NCBI GenBank assembly: GCA_902581405.1
Contig: CACHOJ010000004.1
Coordinates: 13,527 to 77,526, forward strand
From: an uncultured Pelagibacteraceae bacterium
GTDB taxonomy: Bacteria; Pseudomonadota; Alphaproteobacteria; Pelagibacterales; Pelagibacteraceae
DNA length: 64,000 nt
Direction of reading: 5' to 3'
The notes below the pieces were generated by a model. That model worked only from the letters and a program-made list of their open reading frames with translations. It ran no database searches and had not been told where the DNA came from. Below are positions 24,236 through 36,121 of the stretch, piece after piece. The stretch's first letter is position 1. The number at the start of each line of letters is the position of its first letter. The position numbers were made by a program, and so were the translations under genes.

Positions 24236-24322
24236 ATATAATCTAAATATGCCTAATCTATTATAAAGTATCAACAAATTTATATATAAATTTTATATAT
24301 ACATTTGTATCTATTTTGCTTA

Positions 24323-24351
24323 TTGACTGTCACTTTAATAGAGAAGATAAT
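24323..24351 (+). promoter_or_regulatory. Sigma70-like promoter for tmoX
   Basis: TTGACT-N17-GATAAT, 30 nt upstream of the ATG at 24382. Confidence 0.6.
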
Positions 24352-24381
24352 TTACTCCTTAATATTAAGAAAGGGGAAATA

Positions 24382-25335
24382 ATGAAAAAACTTTTATCAA
24401 TTTTTTCTGCTTTTCTAATCACATTTGTTTTTAGTTTTACAACTGCAAATGCTGATAAAAGCGGTGTTGTTAAAATCCCAACACATAACTGGTCTAGTCA
24501 ATTAGTTGGAGCTGAAGTTGTAGGTGAGCTTTTAAAAATGGTTGGAGAGAAAGTTGAATATATCAACATGGACTCTCAAGCAGTTTACCAAGCCATGGCT
24601 GATGGAGATATAGATTTAGTTCATGAAATTTGGGAAGGTGCTTTTGGTGCATCATACGAAAAAGCTAAAGCTGGTGGAGGAATTGAAGAAATTCTTACAC
24701 ATGATGCAGTAACAAGAGAAGATTGGTGGTATCCAAACCATGTAGAGAAATTATGTCCAGGTTTACCTGACTGGAAAGCACTTAATAAATGTGCTGACCT
24801 ATTTGCTAGAGCTGACTCAGGCGGAAAAGGAGTTTTCATTGGTGGTCCAGTTGACTGGTTAAAGCACGATGCTGAAAAAGTTGAAGCATTAGGAATGAAC
24901 TTTATGGTTAAAAATGCAGGATCGGCTGATGCAATTTGGGCAGAGTTAGATGCCGGTGTTGCTCAAGGTAAAGCAGTTGTAGTTTTTAACTGGTCGCCAA
25001 ACTTCATAGGTGCAAAATATCCAGGAAAATTTGTTGAGTTTCCAAAGCATGACCCTGCTTGTACAAAGGATCCAGCTTGGGGAATTAATAAAACAGCACT
25101 ATATGACTGTGGTAACCCAGCTAGTGGTTATTTAAAATTAGCAGTAAATGCTGACTTTAAGAATAATCATCCAAATGGATATAAATTACTGAAACAGATG
25201 AACTTTTCTGGTCCAGACATCGACAAGATGGCAAATTACAAAGACACAGACGGACTTGAAGTATCTGCTGCCGCTCAGAAATGGTTAAATGATCATAAAT
25301 CTAAGTGGGAGCCTTGGGTTGCTTCATCAAAATAA
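24382..25335 (+). CDS. tmoX: TMAO ABC transporter substrate-binding protein
   Basis: RBS AAGGGG; signal peptide MKKLLS..ANA; OpuAC-family features (NWSSQ, HEIWEG, REDWWYP, CPGLPDWKALNKC, FNWSPN); adjacent to tdm. Confidence 0.8.
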   Translation: MKKLLSIFSAFLITFVFSFTTANADKSGVVKIPTHNWSSQLVGAEVVGELLKMVGEKVEYINMDSQAVYQAMADGDIDLVHEIWEGAFGASYEKAKAGGGIEEILTHDAVTREDWWYPNHVEKLCPGLPDWKALNKCADLFARADSGGKGVFIGGPVDWLKHDAEKVEALGMNFMVKNAGSADAIWAELDAGVAQGKAVVVFNWSPNFIGAKYPGKFVEFPKHDPACTKDPAWGINKTALYDCGNPASGYLKLAVNADFKNNHPNGYKLLKQMNFSGPDIDKMANYKDTDGLEVSAAAQKWLNDHKSKWEPWVASSK

Positions 25336-25351
25336 GTAATTGAAAATATAT

Positions 25352-25389
25352 AAACGAACCGATTTTTATAAGTCGGTTCGTTTTTTTTT
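25352..25389 (+). terminator. Rho-independent terminator/attenuator after tmoX
   Basis: AAACGAACCGATT...AGTCGGTTCGTTT hairpin followed by a T-run. Confidence 0.85.
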
Positions 25390-25415
25390 ATTTTATGATA
25401 AATTAAAATTTAAGC

Positions 25416-26444
25416 ATGAACAAAGAAGCGAAAATATCCTGCAAAAATATCTGGAAGTTATACGGTGAAGCTCCAGAAAAGTTTCTAAAGAATACAAATA
25501 ACAACCCTACAACAGAAGAGATTAAAAAAAATAATTATATACCTGCTGTAAGAGATGCATCAATAGATGTTAATACAGGTGAAATACTAGTTATTATGGG
25601 ACTAAGCGGTTCAGGAAAATCAACATTGCTTAGATGTATGTCAAAATTAATTGAACCAACTCATGGTCAGGTATTTTTTGAAGGAAATGATTTGTTAAAA
25701 GCGTCTGAAAAAGAGTTAATAGATATAAGACGGCATAAGATGGGTATGGTGTTCCAACACTTTGCACTTTTGCCTCACCGAACAGTTTTGCAAAATGTTG
25801 CATTTCCACTTGAGGTTCAAGGACAAGAAATTCAAAAAAGAGAGGAAAGAGCAAAAGATGTAATAAAGCTAGTAGGTTTAGAAGGAAGAGAAAAATATTA
25901 TCCAAGGGAATTATCAGGAGGACAACAACAAAGAGTTGGTCTTGCGAGATCTTTAGCAGTTGAACCAGATGTTTGGTTTTTAGATGAACCTTTTTCTGCA
26001 TTAGATCCATTAATAAGAAAAGAAATGCAAAACGAGTTTTTAAGACTTCAAAGTATGTTAAAGAAAACGATTGTTTTTATTACTCATGATTTTGACGAGG
26101 CAATTAGATTAGCAGATAGGATAGCAATAATGTATGAGGGATTAATTGTTCAAGTAGGAACACCCGAAGAATTAATTACAAAACCAGCTACTGATTATGT
26201 TGCAGAATTTACAAAAGATATACCAAGATCAAAATTATTAAATGCAGAAAGCATTATGAATGAAAAAGATAAAAAACCTTACGAAAACAAAGTTAATTAT
26301 AGTGATAAAATTGAAAAAATTGCATCAAAAGTTTTAAAGTCAGAAAGTATTTTTTCTGTAGTTGATGACAACAAAGAGGTTATAGGTTCATTGAGTAAAA
26401 AAGAATTAATTAAAGCTTTATTTGCTGAAGACAAAAATGAATAA
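25416..26444 (+). CDS. tmoW: Quaternary amine ABC transporter ATP-binding protein
   Basis: GLSGSGKST, LSGGQQQRVGLAR, DEPFSALDP, FITHD. Confidence 0.85.
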   Translation: MNKEAKISCKNIWKLYGEAPEKFLKNTNNNPTTEEIKKNNYIPAVRDASIDVNTGEILVIMGLSGSGKSTLLRCMSKLIEPTHGQVFFEGNDLLKASEKELIDIRRHKMGMVFQHFALLPHRTVLQNVAFPLEVQGQEIQKREERAKDVIKLVGLEGREKYYPRELSGGQQQRVGLARSLAVEPDVWFLDEPFSALDPLIRKEMQNEFLRLQSMLKKTIVFITHDFDEAIRLADRIAIMYEGLIVQVGTPEELITKPATDYVAEFTKDIPRSKLLNAESIMNEKDKKPYENKVNYSDKIEKIASKVLKSESIFSVVDDNKEVIGSLSKKELIKALFAEDKNE

Positions 26445-28449
26445 AATTAAAACCATTTTTAGGGGAAAATTTTTTTTTATATTTGCGCCTTTCATTTTCT
26501 TGTGGCTCTTACGTTATATTATTCCAAATTATACTATTTCATCTAAAACACCTCATTGGGCTTACATTCCACCAAAAAGTTGCTTAGGTGGCTGTGGATC
26601 AATAGATGGTCTTATACCTTTTGTGGATTGGACAAATGCATTAATTCAATTTCTTAGAAAGTACGAAATATTCGGTTTGTTTACTTTTAGAGATTTTACA
26701 AGAGGTATTGCCAACTATGTTGATAAATTTTTAGATTTTACAGAAGCAGTTTTACACAAAGGTTTTCCAAGTTATGATGTAGGACCTTTACCTTGGATAT
26801 TTATTTTAACTCTTACAATTATATTGGGATTTTATTTAAGAGGCTGGAGATTAGCTTTATTGGGAGGCGCATGTTTTTCATATTTAATATTATTTAGCAA
26901 AAGAGGGATTTGGGAGCTATCTATGAAATCTTTGGCAGCCATCTCTGTTTCAGCACCTCTAGCAGCATTAATCGGACTGTGTTTAGGTATACTTGCGGTA
27001 AAAAGAAAAAGATTTGCAAACTTTTTATGGCCAATGCTTAACATTTTACAATCGTTACCTCATTTTTCATATTTAATTTTAGTAGTTATATTTGTTGGAA
27101 TAGGCACAAAAGCCGGAGTGATAGCAACTGTTATATTTGCATTTCCTCCCATGGCTAGATTAACGATATTAGGCTTACAAAATATATCTCAAGAAATAAA
27201 AGAGGCAGGTGTCATGGCTGGCTGCACAAAGTGGCAAATGTTATTTAAAGTTGAGATTCCAGCAGCTAGGTCTCCAATAATGTTAGGGATAAATCAGGTT
27301 ATTATGCAATGTCTTGCTATGATTGTTATAGCAGCATTTATTGGTCAACCAGGTCTTGGTCATGATCTATTAATTAGGTTACAAGGTTTAAGATTAGGGG
27401 AAGCTTTTGAAATAGGTGTTGCAGTTGTTTTGATTGCAATTACACTTGATAGGTATAGTCAAGCTTTAGCATTAAAAGAACCAGAGAGAAGAGAGGGAAA
27501 TTTTGTAAAGAGAAATCCATATTTATGCGCAACTTTTTTTGCAATTATAATTTGCTCTATCTTAGTTTTTCTTTTTCCATTTTTTAATGAATATCCAAAG
27601 GAGTTAACAGTTTCAGCATCTGTATATTTAGATAATGCCATTAAATCATTTACAAGATCTTTGTTTGTACCGTTAGGAATATTTAGAGATTGGATGTTAA
27701 TATATTTTTTGATGCCTCTTAAAGCTGTATTTCAATCTATGCCATGGACTGGAGTAATTTTATTTGTCGGAGCAATTGGATGGAAACTTGGTAAAATGAG
27801 ACTAGCTTTGACAGTTATGCTGTTTGTATTTTTTATTGCTTCATCTGGCTACTGGGTAAGGGCAATGATTACGGTGTACATGGTTTTTGCTTCATTAGTT
27901 ATTTGTGCTCTAATTGGAATACCATTAGGAATATGGGCATCTAAGAAAGAAAGTAGAACAAAGATTGTTTTAAATATTTGTGATATTTTTCAAACATTTC
28001 CGTCATTTATATACTTGCTTCCAGCAATAATGTTATTTCAAATTAGTGATGTATCAGCAATATTCGCAATTGTAATATATTCCTCTATTCCAATGATTAG
28101 ATATACGATATTTGGATTAAGAGGTGTTCCTCAACATATTATCGAAGCCGCCATAACATCAGGATGTACCCAAAGACAACTACTTTGGAAAGTAAGAATG
28201 CCTTTAGCTTTTCCAGAGATTATATTAGGTGCAAATCAAACTTTAATGTTCTCATTGTTTATGGTTATGATTGCCGGTTTTATTGGAACAGTTGATTTGT
28301 CTCAAGAAATTTTTAGAGCTTTATCTTTTAGCGATGGGGGAAAAGGATTGATTATTGGTTTATGTGTTGCTTTTATTGGTTTAACTGCTGATAGATTATT
28401 AGTGGAATGGTCAAAACAAATGAAATTAAAATTAGGGTTTAAAAATTAA
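26437..28449 (+). CDS. tmoV: Double-domain ABC permease
   Basis: Two ProW-like halves, each with an EAA loop (EAGVMAGC, EAAITSGC); ATG 26437 overlaps the tmoW stop. Confidence 0.82.
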   Translation: MNKIKTIFRGKFFFIFAPFIFLWLLRYIIPNYTISSKTPHWAYIPPKSCLGGCGSIDGLIPFVDWTNALIQFLRKYEIFGLFTFRDFTRGIANYVDKFLDFTEAVLHKGFPSYDVGPLPWIFILTLTIILGFYLRGWRLALLGGACFSYLILFSKRGIWELSMKSLAAISVSAPLAALIGLCLGILAVKRKRFANFLWPMLNILQSLPHFSYLILVVIFVGIGTKAGVIATVIFAFPPMARLTILGLQNISQEIKEAGVMAGCTKWQMLFKVEIPAARSPIMLGINQVIMQCLAMIVIAAFIGQPGLGHDLLIRLQGLRLGEAFEIGVAVVLIAITLDRYSQALALKEPERREGNFVKRNPYLCATFFAIIICSILVFLFPFFNEYPKELTVSASVYLDNAIKSFTRSLFVPLGIFRDWMLIYFLMPLKAVFQSMPWTGVILFVGAIGWKLGKMRLALTVMLFVFFIASSGYWVRAMITVYMVFASLVICALIGIPLGIWASKKESRTKIVLNICDIFQTFPSFIYLLPAIMLFQISDVSAIFAIVIYSSIPMIRYTIFGLRGVPQHIIEAAITSGCTQRQLLWKVRMPLAFPEIILGANQTLMFSLFMVMIAGFIGTVDLSQEIFRALSFSDGGKGLIIGLCVAFIGLTADRLLVEWSKQMKLKLGFKN

Positions 28450-28479
28450 TTAAAAAAATTAGCGTGAGAAAATTAATTA

Positions 28480-29958
28480 ATGAAAAAGTTTATTGTTTCA
28501 ATAGATCAAGGAACCACATCAACTAGATCTATTTTATTTGATTTAAATGGAAACTCTATTTTTACTTCCCAATTAGAATTCAAACAGTATTTTCCCAAGA
28601 ATGGTTGGGTAGAACATGATCCTGATGAGATTTGGTTTTCAACACTTAAAACCCTTAAACAGGTTATAAAAAAAGCTCATAAAATGAGAGGATGTATACT
28701 TTCAATTGGAATTACTAATCAAAGAGAGACTACAATTTTGTGGAATAAAAAAACAGGAAAACCAATTTATAATGCAATTGTTTGGCAAGATAGAAGAACA
28801 GCAAATATTTGTTCAAATTTAAAAAAAAGAAGTTTGGAAAAATCGTTTAGAAAAAAAACTGGTTTATTTATTGACTCTTATTTTTCAGGGACAAAAATAA
28901 AATGGATAATAGAAAATATAAAAAAATCAAAAAAATTAATAAAAGAAAAGAACTTGTTATTCGGAACAGTAGATACTTATTTAATTTGGAAATTGACAAA
29001 TAAAAAAAAACATTTGACAGATGCAACTAATGCTAGTCGTACATTATTGTATAATATTAATTCAAACAAATGGGATGCAGAAATATTAAAAAAGTTAAAA
29101 ATTCCAAAATCTATTCTGCCAGATGTTAAAAATTCTGCAGACGAATTTGGCTTCACAGATAAAAAAATAGTTGGAGAGGTAATACCTATTAATGCAGTAT
29201 TAGGTGATCAACAAGCAGCTGCCTTTGGACATGCTTGTTTTGAAAGAGGCTCAGTTAAATCAACCTATGGGACCGGTGCTTTTGCCATTATGAATACTGG
29301 AAAAAAAAAAATATTTTCAAAAAATAAACTGTTAACTACAATATTGTTAAGAATAAATAATAAAAATACATATGCGTTAGAGGGTTCTATTTTTATTGCA
29401 GGCGCTGGTATACAATGGCTTAGGGATAAACTAAAATTAATAAACAATGCTCATGAAACAGAAAAAATAATTAAATCAAAAAAAAATAACAACGGAGTTT
29501 ATCTGGTACCAGCATTTGTTGGTCTTGGAGCACCTTACTGGATCCCTACATCAAAAGGTATAATCACTGGTCTTACAAGAAATTCAGATTGGAAAGATTT
29601 AGTTAAAGCAACAGTAGAATCTGTAGCTTATCAAAGTTATGATCTTTTTGAGTCAATGAGAAAAGATGGATTAAAAGCAAAAGTTATAAAAGTAGATGGT
29701 GGAATGATTTCAAATAATTGGTTTATCCAATTTCTATCTGATATATTGGATACAAAAGTTATAAGACCTGCAAATCTTGAAACTTCAGCTTTGGGAGTTG
29801 CTCTGCTTTCAGGATATCAATACGGAATCTATAAGTCTATCAATGAAATAAAACTAAAATGTAAAATTGAGACTTATTTCTATCCAAAAATTAATAAATC
29901 AGTTAGAAATAATTTATTGAAAGGATGGAAACAAGCAATTAGTCAAGCTATTAATTAA
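28480..29958 (+). CDS. glpK: Glycerol kinase
   Basis: IDQGTTSTR, GWVEHDP, GITNQRET, VWQDRRT, TDATNASRT, GDQQAA, KSTYGTG, VDGG. Confidence 0.93.
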   Translation: MKKFIVSIDQGTTSTRSILFDLNGNSIFTSQLEFKQYFPKNGWVEHDPDEIWFSTLKTLKQVIKKAHKMRGCILSIGITNQRETTILWNKKTGKPIYNAIVWQDRRTANICSNLKKRSLEKSFRKKTGLFIDSYFSGTKIKWIIENIKKSKKLIKEKNLLFGTVDTYLIWKLTNKKKHLTDATNASRTLLYNINSNKWDAEILKKLKIPKSILPDVKNSADEFGFTDKKIVGEVIPINAVLGDQQAAAFGHACFERGSVKSTYGTGAFAIMNTGKKKIFSKNKLLTTILLRINNKNTYALEGSIFIAGAGIQWLRDKLKLINNAHETEKIIKSKKNNNGVYLVPAFVGLGAPYWIPTSKGIITGLTRNSDWKDLVKATVESVAYQSYDLFESMRKDGLKAKVIKVDGGMISNNWFIQFLSDILDTKVIRPANLETSALGVALLSGYQYGIYKSINEIKLKCKIETYFYPKINKSVRNNLLKGWKQAISQAIN

Positions 29959-29962
29959 GTTT

Positions 29963-30919
29963 ATGAAAAGAATTCTGATTATTGGAGGTGGTGCAATGGG
30001 GTCAGCCTTTTCTGTTCCATGTATAGATAATAATCATAAAGTATTTATAACAGAGCCATATAGTCAAAGATTTATAAAAAGTTTATCATCAAAAAATAAA
30101 TTTCATTCAGGCTTAAAATTAAATCTTTCAAAAAAACTAATATTTAAAAAATATTCCAAAGAATTACTTTTGGAAAAATACGATCTTATTGTTGTAGCAT
30201 TAAGCTTAACAGGTATCGATTTTATAGCGAAAGAATTAAAAAAATCTAAAGTAAAATCTCCAATTTTAGTACTTACAAAAGGTCTAAAATATGAGAAGCA
30301 AAATAAAAACATTATGACTATTTCACAAACCCTTTTAAAAAGTAATCCTAAATTAAATGTATCAGTTTTGAAAGGACCATGTTTAGCTAAAGAGTTATCT
30401 AGAAGATGCCAAACAAGTGTGATCATCGCCAACAAAAATATTCAGATTGCAAAATTGTTAGGTAAAATGATTTCAACAAAATACTATTTAATCGAATATT
30501 CTAAAGATGTGGTTGGTGTTGAAATATGTTCAGCAATAAAAAATATTTATTCTATGATAATAGGCTCTGGTTTGAGTTTAAATAAATCTTCAAGTTTGTT
30601 TCAAAAATCATTGTTAGAAATGAAACACATAACTAAAAGTTTAAAAGGAAAAAAAGATACGGTTTTAAGTTTAGCAGGTATAGGAGACTTGTATGTAAGT
30701 GCTGCGGGTGGAAGAAATAGTAAAATGGGAAACTATTTGGGACAAGGTTTTACTTTCCAAAGAGCTAAAAAAACGTTTATGGCAAATGATACTGTAGAAG
30801 GCGAACAACTTGTAAGAGAAATTGGACCTTTTATTCTAAAAAAGTTTAATTCAAGGAAAATACCTTTAATGTTTAAAATGATTAGAGCAATTCTAAAAAA
30901 TAAAAAATTCTTTATTTAA
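29963..30919 (+). CDS. gpsA: NAD(P)H-dependent glycerol-3-phosphate dehydrogenase, divergent
   Basis: GGGAMG, LTKG, GPCLAKE, DVVGVE..AIKN, GIGDLYVS..GRN, TVEG. Confidence 0.8.
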   Translation: MKRILIIGGGAMGSAFSVPCIDNNHKVFITEPYSQRFIKSLSSKNKFHSGLKLNLSKKLIFKKYSKELLLEKYDLIVVALSLTGIDFIAKELKKSKVKSPILVLTKGLKYEKQNKNIMTISQTLLKSNPKLNVSVLKGPCLAKELSRRCQTSVIIANKNIQIAKLLGKMISTKYYLIEYSKDVVGVEICSAIKNIYSMIIGSGLSLNKSSSLFQKSLLEMKHITKSLKGKKDTVLSLAGIGDLYVSAAGGRNSKMGNYLGQGFTFQRAKKTFMANDTVEGEQLVREIGPFILKKFNSRKIPLMFKMIRAILKNKKFFI

Positions 30920-31031
30920 AAAATATTATATTTATTGACTTTTTGAGATACAAAGACTTTTTATACCTATTGTCATTCATTTCTCTCGCTGATACATTTC
31001 AATAGTTAATCAACGAAAAGAGGGGAAATCA

Positions 31032-32360
31032 ATGATTAAAAAAATAATAATAACTGTTTGCACTCTAATATTTTTTGTAACTAATATTAGTTTTGCAGAC
31101 ATCACTTTTTGGACTACAGAAGTTCAACCAGCTAGAATGGCAAAACAAGAAGCTATGGCTAAGGATTTTGAGGCTAAAACTGGCATAAAGGTTGAAGTTA
31201 TTCCTGTAGAAGAAAAAGATTTAGGAACAAGAGCAACAGCCGCAGCTGCAGCTGGTGATCTCCCAGATGTAATATATCATACTTTACAATATGTTTTACC
31301 TTGGGCTGAAGCTGGAATATTAGATGTAGATGCTAATAATAAAGTTGTGAAAGAACTTGGCAAAAAAACTTTTGCACCAGGTGCATTAAACATGGCTAAA
31401 AGTGGATCTAAAATAGCAGCAGTTCCAGTTGATGGTTGGACACAAATGGTTGTGTACAGAAAAGATTTATTTGAAAAAGCAGGTCTTGAACCGCCAACAA
31501 GTTATGAAAATATAACTAAAGCAGTAGAAGCACTTTCAGGAGATGGAATGTTTGGTTTTGTTGCTGCTACTAAAACTGATGAAAATTTTATGAGTCAGGT
31601 TTTAGAGCATGTTCTTTTAGCAAATGGAGTAAACGTTGTTAAAAAAGGTGGAGTTAAAAAACAAGGTAAAAAGTTAAAGGCAGCTTTAGAGTTTTATAAA
31701 GTTATTGCAAACGCAAGTCCTCCAGGAGAATTGTATTGGAAACAGTCTAGAGAATTATACTTTGCAGGAAAAACTCCAATGATAATTTGGTCACCATTTA
31801 TAATGGATGAACTTGCAGGCTTAAGAGACTCTGCGCCTCCAACAATAAATGACGATCCTACCTCTAGCGAACTAGCTTCGAAGACAGGTTTTATTACTAA
31901 ATTCAAAGGACCTAATAATAATAAAGGAGCTGCATGGGCGGATATTAGATATTTTGGTATAACAGCTGATGCAGATACTGAAGAGGCAAGTGCATTCATT
32001 AAATATTCAATGGATGAAGGTTACACAAAAACTTTATCAATCGCACCAGAAGGTAAATTTCCTGTGAGAAGAGGAAATGCAAGTGATCCTGAAGCATTTA
32101 CAAAAGCATGGAGTAAATTACCTGTAGGAGTTGATAGAAAAGCACCTTTATCAGAATTATACTCTGAGGATGTTATTAATAACATTGTAGCTGGTTTAGA
32201 CAAAGCTACTAGATGGGGTGTTAAAGAAGGTGAACTCGCTAGAGCTTCTAAAATTATAAATAATAAGTTTATAAATAGAATAACTAGATTATACGTTGAC
32301 GGGCAGATTGATATTGATCAAGCGGTAGACATGATCAATCAAAAACTGGCTCAATTCTAG
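31032..32360 (+). CDS. Sugar (CUT1) ABC transporter substrate-binding protein
   Basis: Signal peptide; FEAKTGIKV, AAAGDLPDV, AVPVDGW..VYRKDLFEKAGL.PP motifs; RBS AGAGGGG. Confidence 0.9.
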   Translation: MIKKIIITVCTLIFFVTNISFADITFWTTEVQPARMAKQEAMAKDFEAKTGIKVEVIPVEEKDLGTRATAAAAAGDLPDVIYHTLQYVLPWAEAGILDVDANNKVVKELGKKTFAPGALNMAKSGSKIAAVPVDGWTQMVVYRKDLFEKAGLEPPTSYENITKAVEALSGDGMFGFVAATKTDENFMSQVLEHVLLANGVNVVKKGGVKKQGKKLKAALEFYKVIANASPPGELYWKQSRELYFAGKTPMIIWSPFIMDELAGLRDSAPPTINDDPTSSELASKTGFITKFKGPNNNKGAAWADIRYFGITADADTEEASAFIKYSMDEGYTKTLSIAPEGKFPVRRGNASDPEAFTKAWSKLPVGVDRKAPLSELYSEDVINNIVAGLDKATRWGVKEGELARASKIINNKFINRITRLYVDGQIDIDQAVDMINQKLAQF

Positions 32361-32381
32361 ATTATAAATTAAATTTTAATG

Positions 32382-32410
32382 AAAGCGGATAATGTGTATT
32401 ATCCGCTTTT
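32382..32410 (+). terminator. Stem-loop after the sugar SBP gene
   Basis: AAAGCGGATAAT-gtgt-ATTATCCGCTTT(T), perfect 12-bp stem. Confidence 0.8.
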
Positions 32411-32413
32411 ATT

Positions 32414-33673
32414 ATGAGCGATACACTTTCAAAAATTGAAAAAAGAACTGCTTATATTTTATTATTACCAGCAGTTTTTCTCGTTTTTTCAATAATATTG
32501 TTTCCTATATTTGCCAATGTTTGGATTAGTTTTAAGGAAGTAGGTTTAAAAGATATAAGAATACCTGAACCAAGAGCAAAAAAAATAGTTAAATCTGTAA
32601 AAGAAAGCCCTGATAAAATTAAAATAATTTACAAGTTAAGAAATAGTTCATTAATATTAGATATTAGGGATGTTAAATTTCTAGACAAGATCCCAAAAAA
32701 TACAGAACCATTAAATTTAGATGAAAGATGTAAACTTAAATCATTAATAATAAATTGTAATTTTGGAGATTGGAAAGCTAAGTATAAAGAGAATTTTCAA
32801 ATAATACTTGTCAACAATTCAGGGGAGAAAATTGATAAAAAAGAAATTAAATCAATCAAACCAAAACTATCAGGTAAATCAGATAATATTCTTTTAAATA
32901 CAAATTTTACGTTAAAAAATTTTAAAAAAGTTTTTTTTCAAAATGAATTTTTTGATTTACTGTCTACAACTTTTTATTATACTTTTTTTGGCACAGTAGG
33001 ATCAATAGTATTTGGAATTTTAGCAGCTCAGCTCGTAAACCAAAAATTTTTTGGAAGAACATTTATGAGAAGTATTCTTCTTTTTCCATATGTAGGACCT
33101 GTTGTAGCATTAGCATATACGTGGGAACTATTATTGGATCCTTACAGCGGAACATTAAACAATCTATTATTAAATTTTCAAATTATTCAGGAACCTCTAA
33201 ATTTATTAGGTCAAAAATATTTAACTATTAATTTTTTTGGTTTTGATTTAAAGCTTAGACTAGCCTTAACAACTGTCATTATTTTTGAAATTTGGCGATA
33301 CTTTCCATTAGCTTTTTTATTTATACTTGCTCGACTACAGGCTGTTCCAAAAGAATTATATGAGGCTGCAGATGTCGATGGAGCTGGCCCACTTCAAAAA
33401 TTTATTAGCATAACACTGCCGCAGATTATGGCAGTAATATCAATTTTGTTTATGATTAGATTTATTTGGAATTTTAATAAATTTGAAGATATTTTCTTAC
33501 TTACTGGAGGAGCGTCAGGTACTAGGACATTGCCAATTAATGTTTATGAGCAAGGTTTCACAATATCTGATATTGGAATGGGATCTGCTGTATCAATAGT
33601 TATAGTTTTGCTTCTTTTAATATTTATGTTTATTTATTTTAGACTATTAGGAAGGCGAGCTGATGAAAATTAA
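32414..33673 (+). CDS. Sugar ABC permease (MalF-like) with a large periplasmic insert
   Basis: EAA loop ELYEAADVDGAG..KFISITLP; TGG..GT.TL. Confidence 0.9.
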   Translation: MSDTLSKIEKRTAYILLLPAVFLVFSIILFPIFANVWISFKEVGLKDIRIPEPRAKKIVKSVKESPDKIKIIYKLRNSSLILDIRDVKFLDKIPKNTEPLNLDERCKLKSLIINCNFGDWKAKYKENFQIILVNNSGEKIDKKEIKSIKPKLSGKSDNILLNTNFTLKNFKKVFFQNEFFDLLSTTFYYTFFGTVGSIVFGILAAQLVNQKFFGRTFMRSILLFPYVGPVVALAYTWELLLDPYSGTLNNLLLNFQIIQEPLNLLGQKYLTINFFGFDLKLRLALTTVIIFEIWRYFPLAFLFILARLQAVPKELYEAADVDGAGPLQKFISITLPQIMAVISILFMIRFIWNFNKFEDIFLLTGGASGTRTLPINVYEQGFTISDIGMGSAVSIVIVLLLLIFMFIYFRLLGRRADEN

Positions 33674-34856
33674 AAGTCTAATATTATATTGTTTAATTTC
33701 ATCTATTTTTCTATTTTCCCTAGTCTCCATTTGGAAAGTTTTATCAACATTACAAGGAATAGATCTTGAAAATTTTAATTTCGCAATTATCCTAACTTTA
33801 GGAATTGGAATATCTCTAATAAATTTGATTATTGGAAACAAGCTTCATAAAGCTATAAAGTCAATAATATTTGCAATTTTATTTACCTTAGTTGATGGAT
33901 ATTTAGTCCAATCGATGCCTATTTGGTACAATATTGGCATCTTTGGAATTTTAATTTTTTACTCTTTTAAAATTGATAAATATAATCAAAAAAACCTAGA
34001 TCTTGATCATTCATCTCAAACAGTTGTATTTGAATTTTTAACTCTTTTTGGAATTGTATTATTTTCTTTTGTAATTTTATTTCCATTTTACATGATGATA
34101 GTTACTAGCTTTAAAACACAAACTGCACTGCTTATAAATCCTTTGGACTTTAGTATTAATTTTGCTCAAGATATTAAAGAACTGTTTAAATCTTACTTTG
34201 TCATATTTGATACTTATAAATTTGGAAGATATATACTTATCAGTACATTTGTATCAGTTGGTACAGTTATAATCACATTAATTTTTGCTATTCCAGCTGC
34301 ATACGCAGTTGCAAGACTAAATTTTTTTGGAAAAAACTTTTTGTCTACTTCAATATTAATTATTTATATGTTTCCTGCTATAGTTTTAGTAATACCTTTA
34401 TATACTGTATTTAGTCAGCTAGGGTTAAGAAATAATGTAGGTGGGCTTTTAATAGTATATACAGCAACTACTTTGCCAGTTGCGATATACATGCTTCAAG
34501 GATATTTCAAAAGTATACCTAAGGAATTAGAAGAAGCTGCTATTATGGATAAATTAAACTGGTTTGGAATTATTATTAAAATTATTTTACCATTAAGTAT
34601 TCCTGCCATTTCTTCAGTTGCTCTTTATGTATTTATGATTGCATGGAATGAATTCTTGTTTTCTTTAATGTTTCTAGATAATCCAAATTCATTTACTTTA
34701 TCAAGAGCGATACAATATTTGAGTGGTGATGCAGAAACCCCTAGACAATATTTAATGGCAGGATCAGTTGTAGTCACTATTCCAGTTTTATTTATTTTTG
34801 TTTATTTTGAAAAATATTTAGTAAGTGGACTAACTGCTGGAAGTGTAAAGGGTTAA
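33663..34856 (+). CDS. Sugar ABC permease (MalG-like) with an N-terminal TM extension
   Basis: AAYAVARLNF.G, IPKELEEAA, AWNEFLF, GLTAGSVKG C-terminus. Confidence 0.9.
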   Translation: MKIKSLILYCLISSIFLFSLVSIWKVLSTLQGIDLENFNFAIILTLGIGISLINLIIGNKLHKAIKSIIFAILFTLVDGYLVQSMPIWYNIGIFGILIFYSFKIDKYNQKNLDLDHSSQTVVFEFLTLFGIVLFSFVILFPFYMMIVTSFKTQTALLINPLDFSINFAQDIKELFKSYFVIFDTYKFGRYILISTFVSVGTVIITLIFAIPAAYAVARLNFFGKNFLSTSILIIYMFPAIVLVIPLYTVFSQLGLRNNVGGLLIVYTATTLPVAIYMLQGYFKSIPKELEEAAIMDKLNWFGIIIKIILPLSIPAISSVALYVFMIAWNEFLFSLMFLDNPNSFTLSRAIQYLSGDAETPRQYLMAGSVVVTIPVLFIFVYFEKYLVSGLTAGSVKG

Positions 34857-36121
34857 TGAAAAAATTTATTAATTCAGCTAAAAAAGTGTTATTAGGTAAT
34901 AAAAAAAATGGATACACTTTACCAACCAATAATAAATTATACCCAGCTCAATGGAATTGGGACTCTGGATTTATAGCTTTAGGTTATTCACATTTTAAAC
35001 TTAAATATGCTTTAGATGAATTAAATACACTTATTAGAGGTCAATGGAAAGATGGAATGATACCACATATTTTGTTTCATGATTTAAATACTAATTATTA
35101 TCCAAACCATTCTGTTTGGGCTTGTGGAAATAAAATTCATTCATCTGGAATTACCCAACCTCCAATTTTAGCAATAATAATAAAATTAATTTTTGATAAA
35201 TATAAAATTAAAAAAGAAAAAGCTGAATTTAAAAAAATTATTAAATGTGTTTTAAAATATCACAAATGGTTCATTAAATTTAGAGACCCAAATAATTCAG
35301 GATTAGTCTCAATTTTACATCCATGGGAGAGTGGATATGACAATTCACCTCTTTGGGATGATCCGATGAGTAAAGTAAAAATTCCAAAGAATTTAAAATA
35401 CAAAAGGGGCGATAACAAAGTGGTTAACCCTGAATACAGACCTTTAGACATAGATTATGATAGATATGTAACAATTAAAAATCACTTAAGAAAAAATAAT
35501 TATAATCCAAACAAACTTTTCAAAGCTTCGTTATTTAATGTTGTTGATGTTGGATTTAATTCGATATTTTTGAGGGCAAATAAAGATCTTGTTAAACTAT
35601 TAAAAATGTTTGATTTGAAAAGTAATGAAATAGAAACGTATATTTCGAGATCTGAGAAAAAAATTGTTAAACTATATAATAAAAAAAATAATAGTTTTTT
35701 TAATCTTGATTTAAAAAATAAAAAAAAAATAAAAATCCCATCTATCACAAATTATTTTATTTTAATTGCTGATTTAAAAGATAAAAAATTAAATAATAAT
35801 ATTATCAAAAACCTAAAAAAACATAGCAATAAAGAAAAATATTTTTTTTCAAGTATAAAATCAAATCATCGAAAATTTGAAGAAAAAAGATATTGGCGAG
35901 GCCCAGTGTGGATAAACTGTAATTGGATTATCTATCAAGGATTAAAAAATAAAGATAATAGATTTGCAAATCAAATAAAAAAGAAAACAATCGATCTTGT
36001 AAAACAAAAAGGTTTTAATGAATATTTTAGTTGCAAAACTGGAAAAGGATTTGGCGCAACCAACTTTTCATGGACTGCATCCTTATTTTTAGATTTAATT
36101 TTAGAGAATAAATATGAGTAA
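34856..36121 (+). CDS. GH63-like (alpha/alpha)6 glycoside hydrolase (mannosylglycerate/glucosylglycerate/glucosylglycerol hydrolase-like)
   Basis: YPAQWNWDSGFIALG, ITQPP, HPWESGYDNSP, YWRGPVWINCNW, GFNEYF, FSWTA. Confidence 0.83.
   Translation: MKKFINSAKKVLLGNKKNGYTLPTNNKLYPAQWNWDSGFIALGYSHFKLKYALDELNTLIRGQWKDGMIPHILFHDLNTNYYPNHSVWACGNKIHSSGITQPPILAIIIKLIFDKYKIKKEKAEFKKIIKCVLKYHKWFIKFRDPNNSGLVSILHPWESGYDNSPLWDDPMSKVKIPKNLKYKRGDNKVVNPEYRPLDIDYDRYVTIKNHLRKNNYNPNKLFKASLFNVVDVGFNSIFLRANKDLVKLLKMFDLKSNEIETYISRSEKKIVKLYNKKNNSFFNLDLKNKKKIKIPSITNYFILIADLKDKKLNNNIIKNLKKHSNKEKYFFSSIKSNHRKFEEKRYWRGPVWINCNWIIYQGLKNKDNRFANQIKKKTIDLVKQKGFNEYFSCKTGKGFGATNFSWTASLFLDLILENKYE

What the first reader, a model, noticed from the sequence alone, without database searches (positions are those of the whole stretch)
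28480..36121. glpK-gpsA-sugar ABC-GH63 cassette: probable glycosyl-glycerol osmolyte scavenging module
Seen: six co-oriented genes (glycerol kinase, divergent NAD(P)-dependent G3P dehydrogenase, CUT1 SBP, two permeases, GH63-like hydrolase) sit inside an otherwise methylamine/C1 region. Established: characterised GH63-like enzymes with these motifs cleave compatible solutes (mannosylglycerate, glucosylglycerate, glucosylglycerol). Inference: the partner is a glycerol kinase rather than a glycerate kinase, which points to a glycerol aglycone such as cyanobacterial glucosylglycerol or algal floridoside/isofloridoside. That would be a phytoplankton-to-SAR11 cross-feeding route I do not know to be characterised.
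Basis: partly seen in the sequence, partly recalled or inferred. Interest (0 to 1): 0.78.

Follow-up and report, generated by a model that had tools for sequence, protein, structure and literature searches.

The report
SAR11 glucosylglycerate importer and hydrolase
Four genes in this ocean bacterium (SAR11) likely import the sugar-acid osmolyte glucosylglycerate and split it into glucose and glycerate, which would be an untested food link to marine cyanobacteria; the two glycerol genes beside them are likely ordinary neighbours, not part of the unit.

Summary
The six genes are real, but they are not one module and the glycerol-aglycone inference is not supported. The conserved unit is SBP-permease-permease-GH63, usually with a MalK ATPase (missing here; a likely partner lies on contig C1). 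gpsA is the single-copy housekeeping gene. glpK lies within 10 kb in 33 of 67 SBP loci and 0 of 13 non-SAR11 loci. The evidence points to glucosylglycerate (GGA). The hydrolase keeps all five glycerate-contacting residues of mycobacterial GgH, which cannot cleave glucosylglycerol. In relatives it follows the GGA synthesis genes gpgP-gpgS. It is replaced in place by a GGA phosphorylase behind an identical SBP. In 301 Pelagibacteraceae genomes the two enzymes never co-occur; 120 of 126 SBP genomes and 80 of 82 gpgS genomes carry one of them. Seventy genomes have importer plus cleaving enzyme but no gpgS match. Against my reading: glpK occurs somewhere in 32 of 37 GH63 genomes checked, and no glycerate kinase was found. 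No ligand has been measured. My ten paper searches found no SAR11 GGA importer. This scan reached the same reading on three other genomes.

The parts
31032..32360 (+). CUT1 solute-binding protein, YcjN subfamily; predicted glucosylglycerate-binding protein (core of the unit)
   Evidence: Pfam SBP_bac_1/8; best PDB sequence and fold matches are YcjN 8VQK, 7V09 and Lmo2839 8ULA, TM 0.77-0.81; found in 126 of 301 family genomes
32414..33673 (+). ABC permease, MalF/UgpA type (core)
   Evidence: PF00528 and NCBIfam hits; follows the SBP in related loci
33663..34856 (+). ABC permease, MalG type (core)
   Evidence: PF00528 and NCBIfam hits; overlaps both neighbours
34856..36121 (+). GH63 MgH/GgH-type glycosylglycerate hydrolase (core; exchangeable with a GH13_18 GGA phosphorylase in relatives)
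   Evidence: PF22422; TTHA0978 E 3.4e-92, MhGgH E 3e-52; 17 of 18 MhGgH active-site positions kept; found in 100 of 301 genomes
30920..31031 (+). 112-bp intergenic region before the SBP, where relatives often have malK; possible own promoter (untested)
   Evidence: similar in the three close kin printed; promoter scan of the region not above shuffles, 59 vs 48.8 +/- 6.7
28480..29958 (+). Glycerol kinase GlpK; neighbour, not a conserved part of the unit; different ancestry from the downstream block
   Evidence: TIGR01311 above cut-off; 71-72% identical to the glpK of kin whose GH63 is 97% identical
29963..30919 (+). NAD(P)H-dependent glycerol-3-phosphate dehydrogenase GpsA; the only copy in the assembly, housekeeping; neighbour
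   Evidence: single tblastn hit in G000; match in 54 of 61 relatives

Best explanation
The SBP, two permeases and GH63 form a portable SAR11 unit that likely imports 2-O-alpha-glucosyl-D-glycerate (GGA; probably also mannosylglycerate) and likely hydrolyses it in the cytoplasm to glucose and D-glycerate, with glpK and gpsA likely unrelated neighbours. Shown: gene content, family membership, active-site conservation and co-occurrence patterns. Inferred: the YcjN-type SBP binds GGA; the permeases are powered by a MalK encoded elsewhere (G000:C1:199326-200375); D162 (acid) and E389 (base) act by the inverting mechanism described for MhGgH; glucose enters the sugar-oxidation locus at G000:C1:146-165 kb. 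The fate of glycerate is open: no glycerate kinase was found, so oxidation by a 2-hydroxyacid or tartronate-semialdehyde-type dehydrogenase, or excretion, is a guess. In lineages without gpgS the unit would be a scavenging route for GGA made by picocyanobacteria or other SAR11; in lineages with gpgS it would also recapture and turn over the cell's own osmolyte.
For: (1) Active site: Y29, W33, Y81, R195 and Y346 match the five MhGgH residues that contact glycerate (Y36, W40, Y88, R216, Y375). 17 of 18 positions are identical in 11 of 11 SAR11 copies; the 18th is Phe, as in Thermus MgH. MhGgH does not cleave glucosylglycerol. MgHs cleave MG and GGA alike. (2) Synthesis context: gpgP-gpgS-GH63 in L015, L115, L117 and L118 (GH63 73-76% identical to the window's), and a single co-oriented run gpgP-gpgS-malK-SBP-perm-perm-GH63 in L116. 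(3) In-place swap: L071, L078 and L096 carry a 576-aa GH13_18 enzyme in the GH63 position. 6 of 6 such proteins in the loci have (T/S)ETN and Glu in loop A, the published fingerprint of strict GGA phosphorylases, not the VGAIYQ of glucosylglycerol phosphorylases. The SBP of L096 (phosphorylase) is 100% identical to that of L100 (GH63). Phosphorylase-linked SBPs fall at three places in the SBP tree. (4) 301 genomes: GH63 100, phosphorylase 58, both 0 (19 expected if independent; kin are not independent); SBP genomes with one of the two 120 of 126; gpgS genomes with one 80 of 82. (5) The SBP's closest structures are YcjN-type, and E. coli ycjN shares an operon with the GGA phosphorylase YcjM. 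(6) ATPase: the C1 MalK is 78-83% identical to the MalK directly upstream of this SBP in 10 loci, and its neighbourhood is syntenic with the site where those genomes carry the cassette.
Against: No ligand or activity has been measured. No glycerate kinase was found in G000 (PF13660, PF02595, PF00485; 78% complete) or in 40 near-complete relatives (PF13660 only). glpK is somewhere in 32 of 37 GH63 genomes, and within 12 kb in 12 of those 32. The GH63 scores 302 bits against NF047898 (cut-off 550). YcjN's own ligand is unknown, and its identity to this SBP is about 21%. Distant alphaproteobacterial GH63s (30-38% identical) sit with other SBPs and show no GGA genes nearby, so the family may have other substrates. 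No KDPG aldolase (PF01081) or glucokinase (PF02685) match in the incomplete assembly.
Confidence: 0.74

Rival explanations
1. One reading: the unit is dedicated to a glycosyl-glycerol (glucosylglycerol, floridoside), and GlpK/GpsA consume the released glycerol.
For: glpK-gpsA directly precede the SBP in this window. glpK is within 10 kb in 33 of 67 loci and somewhere in 32 of 37 GH63 genomes. No glycerate kinase was found. Glucosylglycerol has a net turnover above 1 nmol C per litre per day in the North Pacific gyre (PMC8269247 passage).
Against: The glycerate-contacting residues are fully kept and MhGgH is inactive on glucosylglycerol. The same SBP pairs with a phosphorylase of the GGA fingerprint. 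GH63 follows gpgP-gpgS in 4 loci and shares a run with them in L116. The glpK-near loci form two clades of the SBP tree. Five GH63 genomes have no glpK match (G253 97% complete; four of genus g5, 86-92%). 0 of 13 non-SAR11 loci have glpK or gpsA. The glpK/gpsA join is a recombination boundary. Floridoside is a galactoside (recalled), whereas the -1 subsite matches the gluco/manno enzymes.
Confidence: 0.06
2. Broad heteroside unit: GGA is a substrate, but the GH63 version (unlike the strict phosphorylase) also handles glucosylglycerol, which would explain why GH63 lineages tend to keep glpK.
For: glpK is in 32 of 37 GH63 genomes, against 7 of 23 phosphorylase genomes and 6 of 20 with neither. 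The Phe at the Q434 position differs from the strict mycobacterial enzyme.
Against: The genome sets were hand-picked and the pattern follows lineages. Identical SBPs serve either enzyme. The one homologue for which I read a test does not turn over glucosylglycerol.
Confidence: 0.12
3. Same chemistry, different role (overlaps the best explanation): in this lineage the unit mainly manages the cell's own osmolyte pool, recapturing and turning over self-made GGA, rather than feeding on phytoplankton products.
For: 9 of the 10 genomes whose GH63 is at least 85% identical to the window's have gpgS, so G000 (78% complete, no gpgS match) may have it unassembled. 50 genomes have importer, cleaving enzyme and gpgS. 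GGA synthesis genes are reported in 82% of 22 offshore SAR11 genomes (PMC12636525 supplement).
Against: 70 genomes have importer plus cleaving enzyme and no gpgS match, among them single-contig 99% complete genomes such as G118, G151, G159 and G187; these can only use external GGA.
Confidence: 0.35
4. The main substrate is mannosylglycerate (digeneaside) or an unknown alpha-1,2-glycoside rather than GGA.
For: The closest characterised enzyme is Thermus MgH (E 3.4e-92, against 3e-52 for MhGgH), with the same Phe. MgHs cleave MG and GGA alike.
Against: The linked synthase is GpgS-like, and the interchangeable GH13_18 enzymes strictly bind a glucosyl group.
Confidence: 0.08

Closest known systems
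GH63 mannosyl/glucosylglycerate hydrolases: Thermus thermophilus MgH (TTHA0978, PDB 2Z07/4WVA-C) and Mycolicibacterium hassiacum GgH (PDB 5OHC and others)
   Same: Full-length homology (E 3.4e-92 and 3e-52), both catalytic residues, 17 of 18 site residues. Mycobacterial ggH also lies near putative transport genes (passage).
   Different: Mesophilic marine alphaproteobacterial clade, below the NF047898 cut-off; coupled to a YcjN-type importer; swaps with a phosphorylase; untested.
E. coli ycjM-ycjNOP(-ycjV) segment (GGA phosphorylase YcjM plus YcjN ABC importer)
   Same: The SBP's best sequence and fold matches are YcjN-type. SAR11 variants L071, L078 and L096 have the same importer-plus-GGA-phosphorylase make-up. 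YcjN's ligand is unknown; glucosides other than kojibiose were not in the screen.
   Different: About 21% identity; none of the other ycj genes; the window uses a hydrolase instead of the phosphorylase; the SBP here shows no lipoprotein cysteine in its N-terminus (sequence).
SAR11 glucosylglycerate synthesis genes gpgS/yedP(gpgP) (Tucker et al. 2025, PMC12636525)
   Same: Same compound; these genes are joined to the hydrolase or the whole cassette in several relatives.
   Different: In the passages and supplement rows I saw, that paper lists synthesis only; the importer, hydrolase and phosphorylase did not appear under the terms searched.
Glucosylglycerol catabolism: GH13_18 glucosylglycerol phosphorylase of Marinobacter; cyanobacterial GghA (search listing) and Ggt transporter (recalled)
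   Same: Also an alpha-1,2-glucoside osmolyte route.
   Different: Different enzyme families or fingerprints; the SAR11 GH13_18 proteins carry the glycerate-type motifs.

Membership tests
GH63 MgH/GgH glycosylglycerate hydrolases | Full-length MGH1-like GH63 domain | tested here: met
   PF22422 288 bits vs cut-off 27, positions 1-356 of 356; PDB 2Z07 E 3.4e-92
GH63 MgH/GgH glycosylglycerate hydrolases | Catalytic Asp/Glu and -1 subsite residues | tested here: met
   D162, E389, W35, D36, Q101, G160, W347, W352, W406; Q434 position is Phe as in Thermus MgH
GH63 MgH/GgH glycosylglycerate hydrolases | +1 subsite residues contacting glycerate (Y36, W40, Y88, R216, Y375) | tested here: met
   Y29, W33, Y81, R195, Y346 in 11 of 11 SAR11 copies aligned
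Actinobacterial GgH equivalog (NF047898) | Score above curated cut-off 550 | tested here: not met
   302.5 bits
GH63 MgH/GgH glycosylglycerate hydrolases | Hydrolysis of GGA/MG in vitro | not testable with these tools
   needs enzyme assay
CUT1 carbohydrate ABC importer | SBP plus two permeases | tested here: met
CUT1 carbohydrate ABC importer | MalK-type ATPase | tested here: inconclusive
   None in the cassette; adjacent in 45 of 67 related loci; a likely orthologue, 78-83% identical, at G000:C1:199326-200375; pairing untested
YcjN-type SBP | Closest sequence and structure matches are YcjN, ECL_RS08780 and Lmo2839 | tested here: met
   top three (model pLDDT 86.5; E 1e-28 vs 2e-20 for the next protein)
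GH13_18 glucosylglycerate phosphorylase (replacement gene in relatives) | (T/S)ETN motif and Glu in loop A | tested here: met
   6 of 6 proteins; fingerprint from PMC7178133 and PMC6720575 passages
   direct order 0 of 67; glpK within 10 kb in 33 of 67; 0 of 13 outside SAR11; glpK-gpsA adjacent without GH63 in 7 of 8
Glycerol kinase GlpK | TIGR01311 above cut-off | tested here: met
   660 vs 590 bits

The most novel reading that the evidence does not exclude
About 40% of Pelagibacteraceae genomes carry an unrecognised high-affinity importer for glucosylglycerate, with a swappable hydrolase or phosphorylase behind it. This would make GGA a traded osmolyte between picocyanobacteria, SAR11 makers and SAR11 takers, and would name GGA as the ligand of the orphan YcjN binding-protein family, including E. 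coli's. With no glycerate kinase found, the glycerate may be used by an undescribed route.
Probability: 0.5. Interest if true: 0.72.

Novelty: new variant of a known kind. Interest (0 to 1): 0.52.

Why it matters
SAR11 and Prochlorococcus dominate the oligotrophic ocean, and which osmolytes pass between them is an open question (PMC3686209 passage, which also names GGA as a main Prochlorococcus osmolyte). A GGA importer in 126 of 301 sampled genomes gives a concrete, cheap test: one SBP and one enzyme against a five-compound panel. The hydrolase/phosphorylase swap behind an identical SBP fixes the likely ligand without relying on annotation, and predicts a ligand for E. coli YcjN, whose published screen found none.

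Tried and rejected
Single-sequence AlphaFold model of the GH63: pLDDT 34, unusable. Promoter/terminator scan: not above shuffles. RNA runs: 22 listed, all with small word shares; contigs of 4 metatranscriptomes (3 studies) lie on the region, SBP included, but contigs cannot rank genes or show co-transcription, so I draw nothing from them. Glycerate kinase: no match in G000 for PF13660, PF02595 or PF00485 over cut-off, nor in 40 relatives for PF13660 (the other two families were not searched there). No clear serine-glyoxylate aminotransferase: the weak PF00266 hit on C3 is HisC. Non-SAR11 neighbourhoods: 45 of 77 same-strand ORFs scanned with Pfam; no glycerate kinase among them, and one locus has glucokinase and a dehydratase. 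mis-called ORFs in high-GC loci and was redone with tblastn. One search stopped with a parsing error after its printed output; the counts were redone. The SBP model was not inspected for pocket residues (coordinates not available to scripts). Literature: ten searches found no paper assigning a GGA or glucosylglycerol importer to SAR11; subscription papers are mostly missing, and bioRxiv supplements (for example the SAR11 Genome Atlas, seen only in a listing) were not seen. I did not test whether strain HTCC1062 has this SBP.
Full report
Observation. The six ORFs are present and co-oriented, and the labels hold: GlpK above its equivalog cut-off, a divergent GpsA, a CUT1 SBP, two permeases and an MGH1-like GH63. 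The 80 closest SBP loci are Pelagibacteraceae or unclassified Alphaproteobacteria records, so the SAR11 setting is right. The cassette has no ATPase, and a 112-bp gap separates gpsA from the SBP.

Is it one module? No. gpsA is the only copy in the assembly and matches in 54 of 61 relatives, as expected of the housekeeping source of glycerol-3-phosphate for lipids (established knowledge). glpK matches in 40 of 61 and GH63 in 11 of 61. Of the 8 same-genus genomes with glpK but no GH63, 7 have glpK 12-19 bp from gpsA, so that pair exists on its own. Of 80 SBP loci, 67 have at least 6 kb upstream; of these 33 contain glpK, 56 gpsA, 45 an adjacent MalK, and none has the direct glpK-gpsA-SBP order of this window. 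The loci with glpK fall into two clades of the SBP tree (95 rows, some genomes represented twice, FastTree, midpoint root). The cassette also occurs beside a hisD-like gene and pta, beside inositol-type genes and beside valS-like genes (the last two labels are read from N-terminal sequence and recalled). In 13 of 300 other alphaproteobacterial genomes with a GH63 match, all 13 have permeases and MalK next to it and none has glpK or gpsA in the stretch fetched (18 kb; 5.3 kb for one). The window itself is a mosaic: 96% DNA identity to L022 from about 29951 on, 84% to another lineage over the upstream ABC genes, and about 70% over glpK.

What is the substrate? Four lines point to glucosylglycerate (GGA). 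First, the active site. Cereija et al. (PMC6608630; passages read) list the residues that hold glycerate and report that MhGgH cannot hydrolyse glucosylglycerol. The window's enzyme keeps all five polar glycerate contacts and both catalytic residues; 17 of 18 positions are invariant in 11 SAR11 copies, and the other is Phe as in Thermus MgH (numbering transferred through the HMMER alignment). Alarico et al. (PMC5381378; passages) state that MgHs cleave MG and GGA alike. Second, gene context: close homologues follow gpgP-gpgS-like genes in L015, L115, L117 and L118, and L116 has gpgP-gpgS-malK-SBP-perm-perm-GH63 in one direction (the GpgS and GpgP hits are below their NCBIfam cut-offs). Third, an in-place swap: in L071, L078 and L096 a GH13_18 enzyme stands where GH63 stands, and L064, L066 and L067 have it divergently upstream, twice with gpgS-gpgP. 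All 6 carry (T/S)ETN and a loop-A Glu, which Franceus and Desmet (PMC7178133; passages) give as the fingerprint of strict GGA phosphorylases. The L096 and L100 SBPs are identical although one precedes the phosphorylase and the other GH63. Of 61 loci with both flanks, 55 have GH63, 5 the phosphorylase and 1 neither. Fourth, whole genomes: in one draw of 301 family genomes (at least 80% complete, plus G000) GH63 occurs in 100, the SBP in 126, GpgS in 82 and the phosphorylase in 58. No genome has both cleaving enzymes; 120 of 126 SBP genomes and 80 of 82 gpgS genomes have one; 136 have none of the four. Kin are not independent, so no P value is claimed. The SBP is of the YcjN type by sequence and predicted fold; E. 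coli ycjN shares its operon with the GGA phosphorylase YcjM, and its ligand screen was negative (PMC11543891; passages).

Mechanism. Likely: the SBP captures GGA, the permeases import it with a MalK encoded on C1 (78-83% identical to the MalK adjacent to this SBP in 10 loci, at a syntenic site), and GH63 releases glucose and glycerate. G000 has a sugar ABC, dehydrogenase and dehydratase locus on C1 that resembles the SAR11 glucose-oxidation cluster (recalled); no KDPG aldolase matched in the 78% complete assembly. Glycerate's fate is unresolved: no glycerate kinase, several 2-hydroxyacid dehydrogenases and one tartronate-semialdehyde-reductase-like gene below cut-off.

Against my reading. glpK is somewhere in 32 of 37 GH63 genomes checked, against 7 of 23 phosphorylase genomes and 6 of 20 with neither; it is within 12 kb of GH63 in 12 of the 32, 31-185 kb away on the same contig in 10, and on another contig in 10. 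The sets were hand-picked and lineage-structured, but they leave room for side activity on glucosylglycerol, which is a real, fast-cycling gyre metabolite (PMC8269247; passages). Also, 9 of the 10 closest genomes have gpgS, so this lineage probably makes GGA and the importer may serve recapture. Cross-feeding is best argued from the 70 genomes with importer and cleaving enzyme but no gpgS match.

What is known. GGA synthesis genes in offshore SAR11 are published (PMC12636525; passages and supplement rows). GGA as a Prochlorococcus osmolyte is stated in PMC3686209 (passages); Klahn et al. 2010 was seen only as a reference title. The SAR11 SBP survey (PMC11485210; term search) has no occurrence of 'glucosyl' in its main text. 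PMC13712998, PMC6775983, PMC8443644, PMC12324868, PMC11009771, PMC6720575 and 10.1101/549816 were read as passages only and assign no such importer in what I saw. SBP relatives are numerous (3282 proteins at E up to 1e-40 among 8000 candidates), with source names including SAR116, Amylibacter and Ahrensia. Earlier agents of this scan reached the GGA reading on three other SAR11 genomes; my reading was set before that look-up, and those notes are not independent support.

Verdict. Observation confirmed; interpretation partly supported; a new variant of a known kind. Glucosylglycerate import and hydrolysis 0.74; glycerol-glycoside-dedicated module 0.06. Interest 0.52.

Noticed in passing
window 24316-29958: The betaine-type ABC genes and glpK come from a different lineage than the downstream block; closest kin have another ABC allele plus a divergent tmm (trimethylamine monooxygenase) between glpK and gpsA. 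No tmm match in this assembly.
   Followed up: partly
L071:13912-15642, L078, L096: GH13_18 glucosylglycerate phosphorylase replaces GH63 in place behind SBPs 99-100% identical to GH63-linked ones; the two enzymes never co-occur in 301 genomes.
   Followed up: yes
L116 (G253:C1:309500-327500): Complete make-import-cleave run gpgP-gpgS-malK-SBP-perm-perm-GH63 in a 97% complete genome with no glpK match.
   Followed up: yes
L136:13327-14376 (G000:C1:199326-200375): MalK divergent from another sugar-type ABC operon and close to a hisD-like gene; in relatives the GGA cassette sits directly behind this gene, where G000 has a single 299-aa membrane-type gene. It may be a shared ATPase.
   Followed up: partly
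L135 (G000:C1:145000-164999): Sugar ABC, ROK kinase, several dehydrogenases, two dehydratases, a TRAP-like transporter and a tartronate-semialdehyde-reductase-like gene: probable sugar and sugar-acid oxidation locus.
   Followed up: partly
L142:10006-11657 (G000:C10): Dihydroxyacetone kinase subunits DhaL and DhaK (both above cut-off) follow a sugar ABC operon with two ATPases.
   Followed up: no
L122-L127, L129, L130, L134: Nine non-SAR11 alphaproteobacteria have a second ABC-MalK-GH63 operon type with a different SBP family, three of them near a PIG-L deacetylase and one near a lyxose isomerase; substrate unknown.
   Followed up: partly
window 29963-30919: The Pelagibacteraceae GpsA is only 26-30% identical to that of the other family sampled in the same order and scores below all NCBIfam GpsA cut-offs; best PDB match 1TXG.
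   Followed up: no
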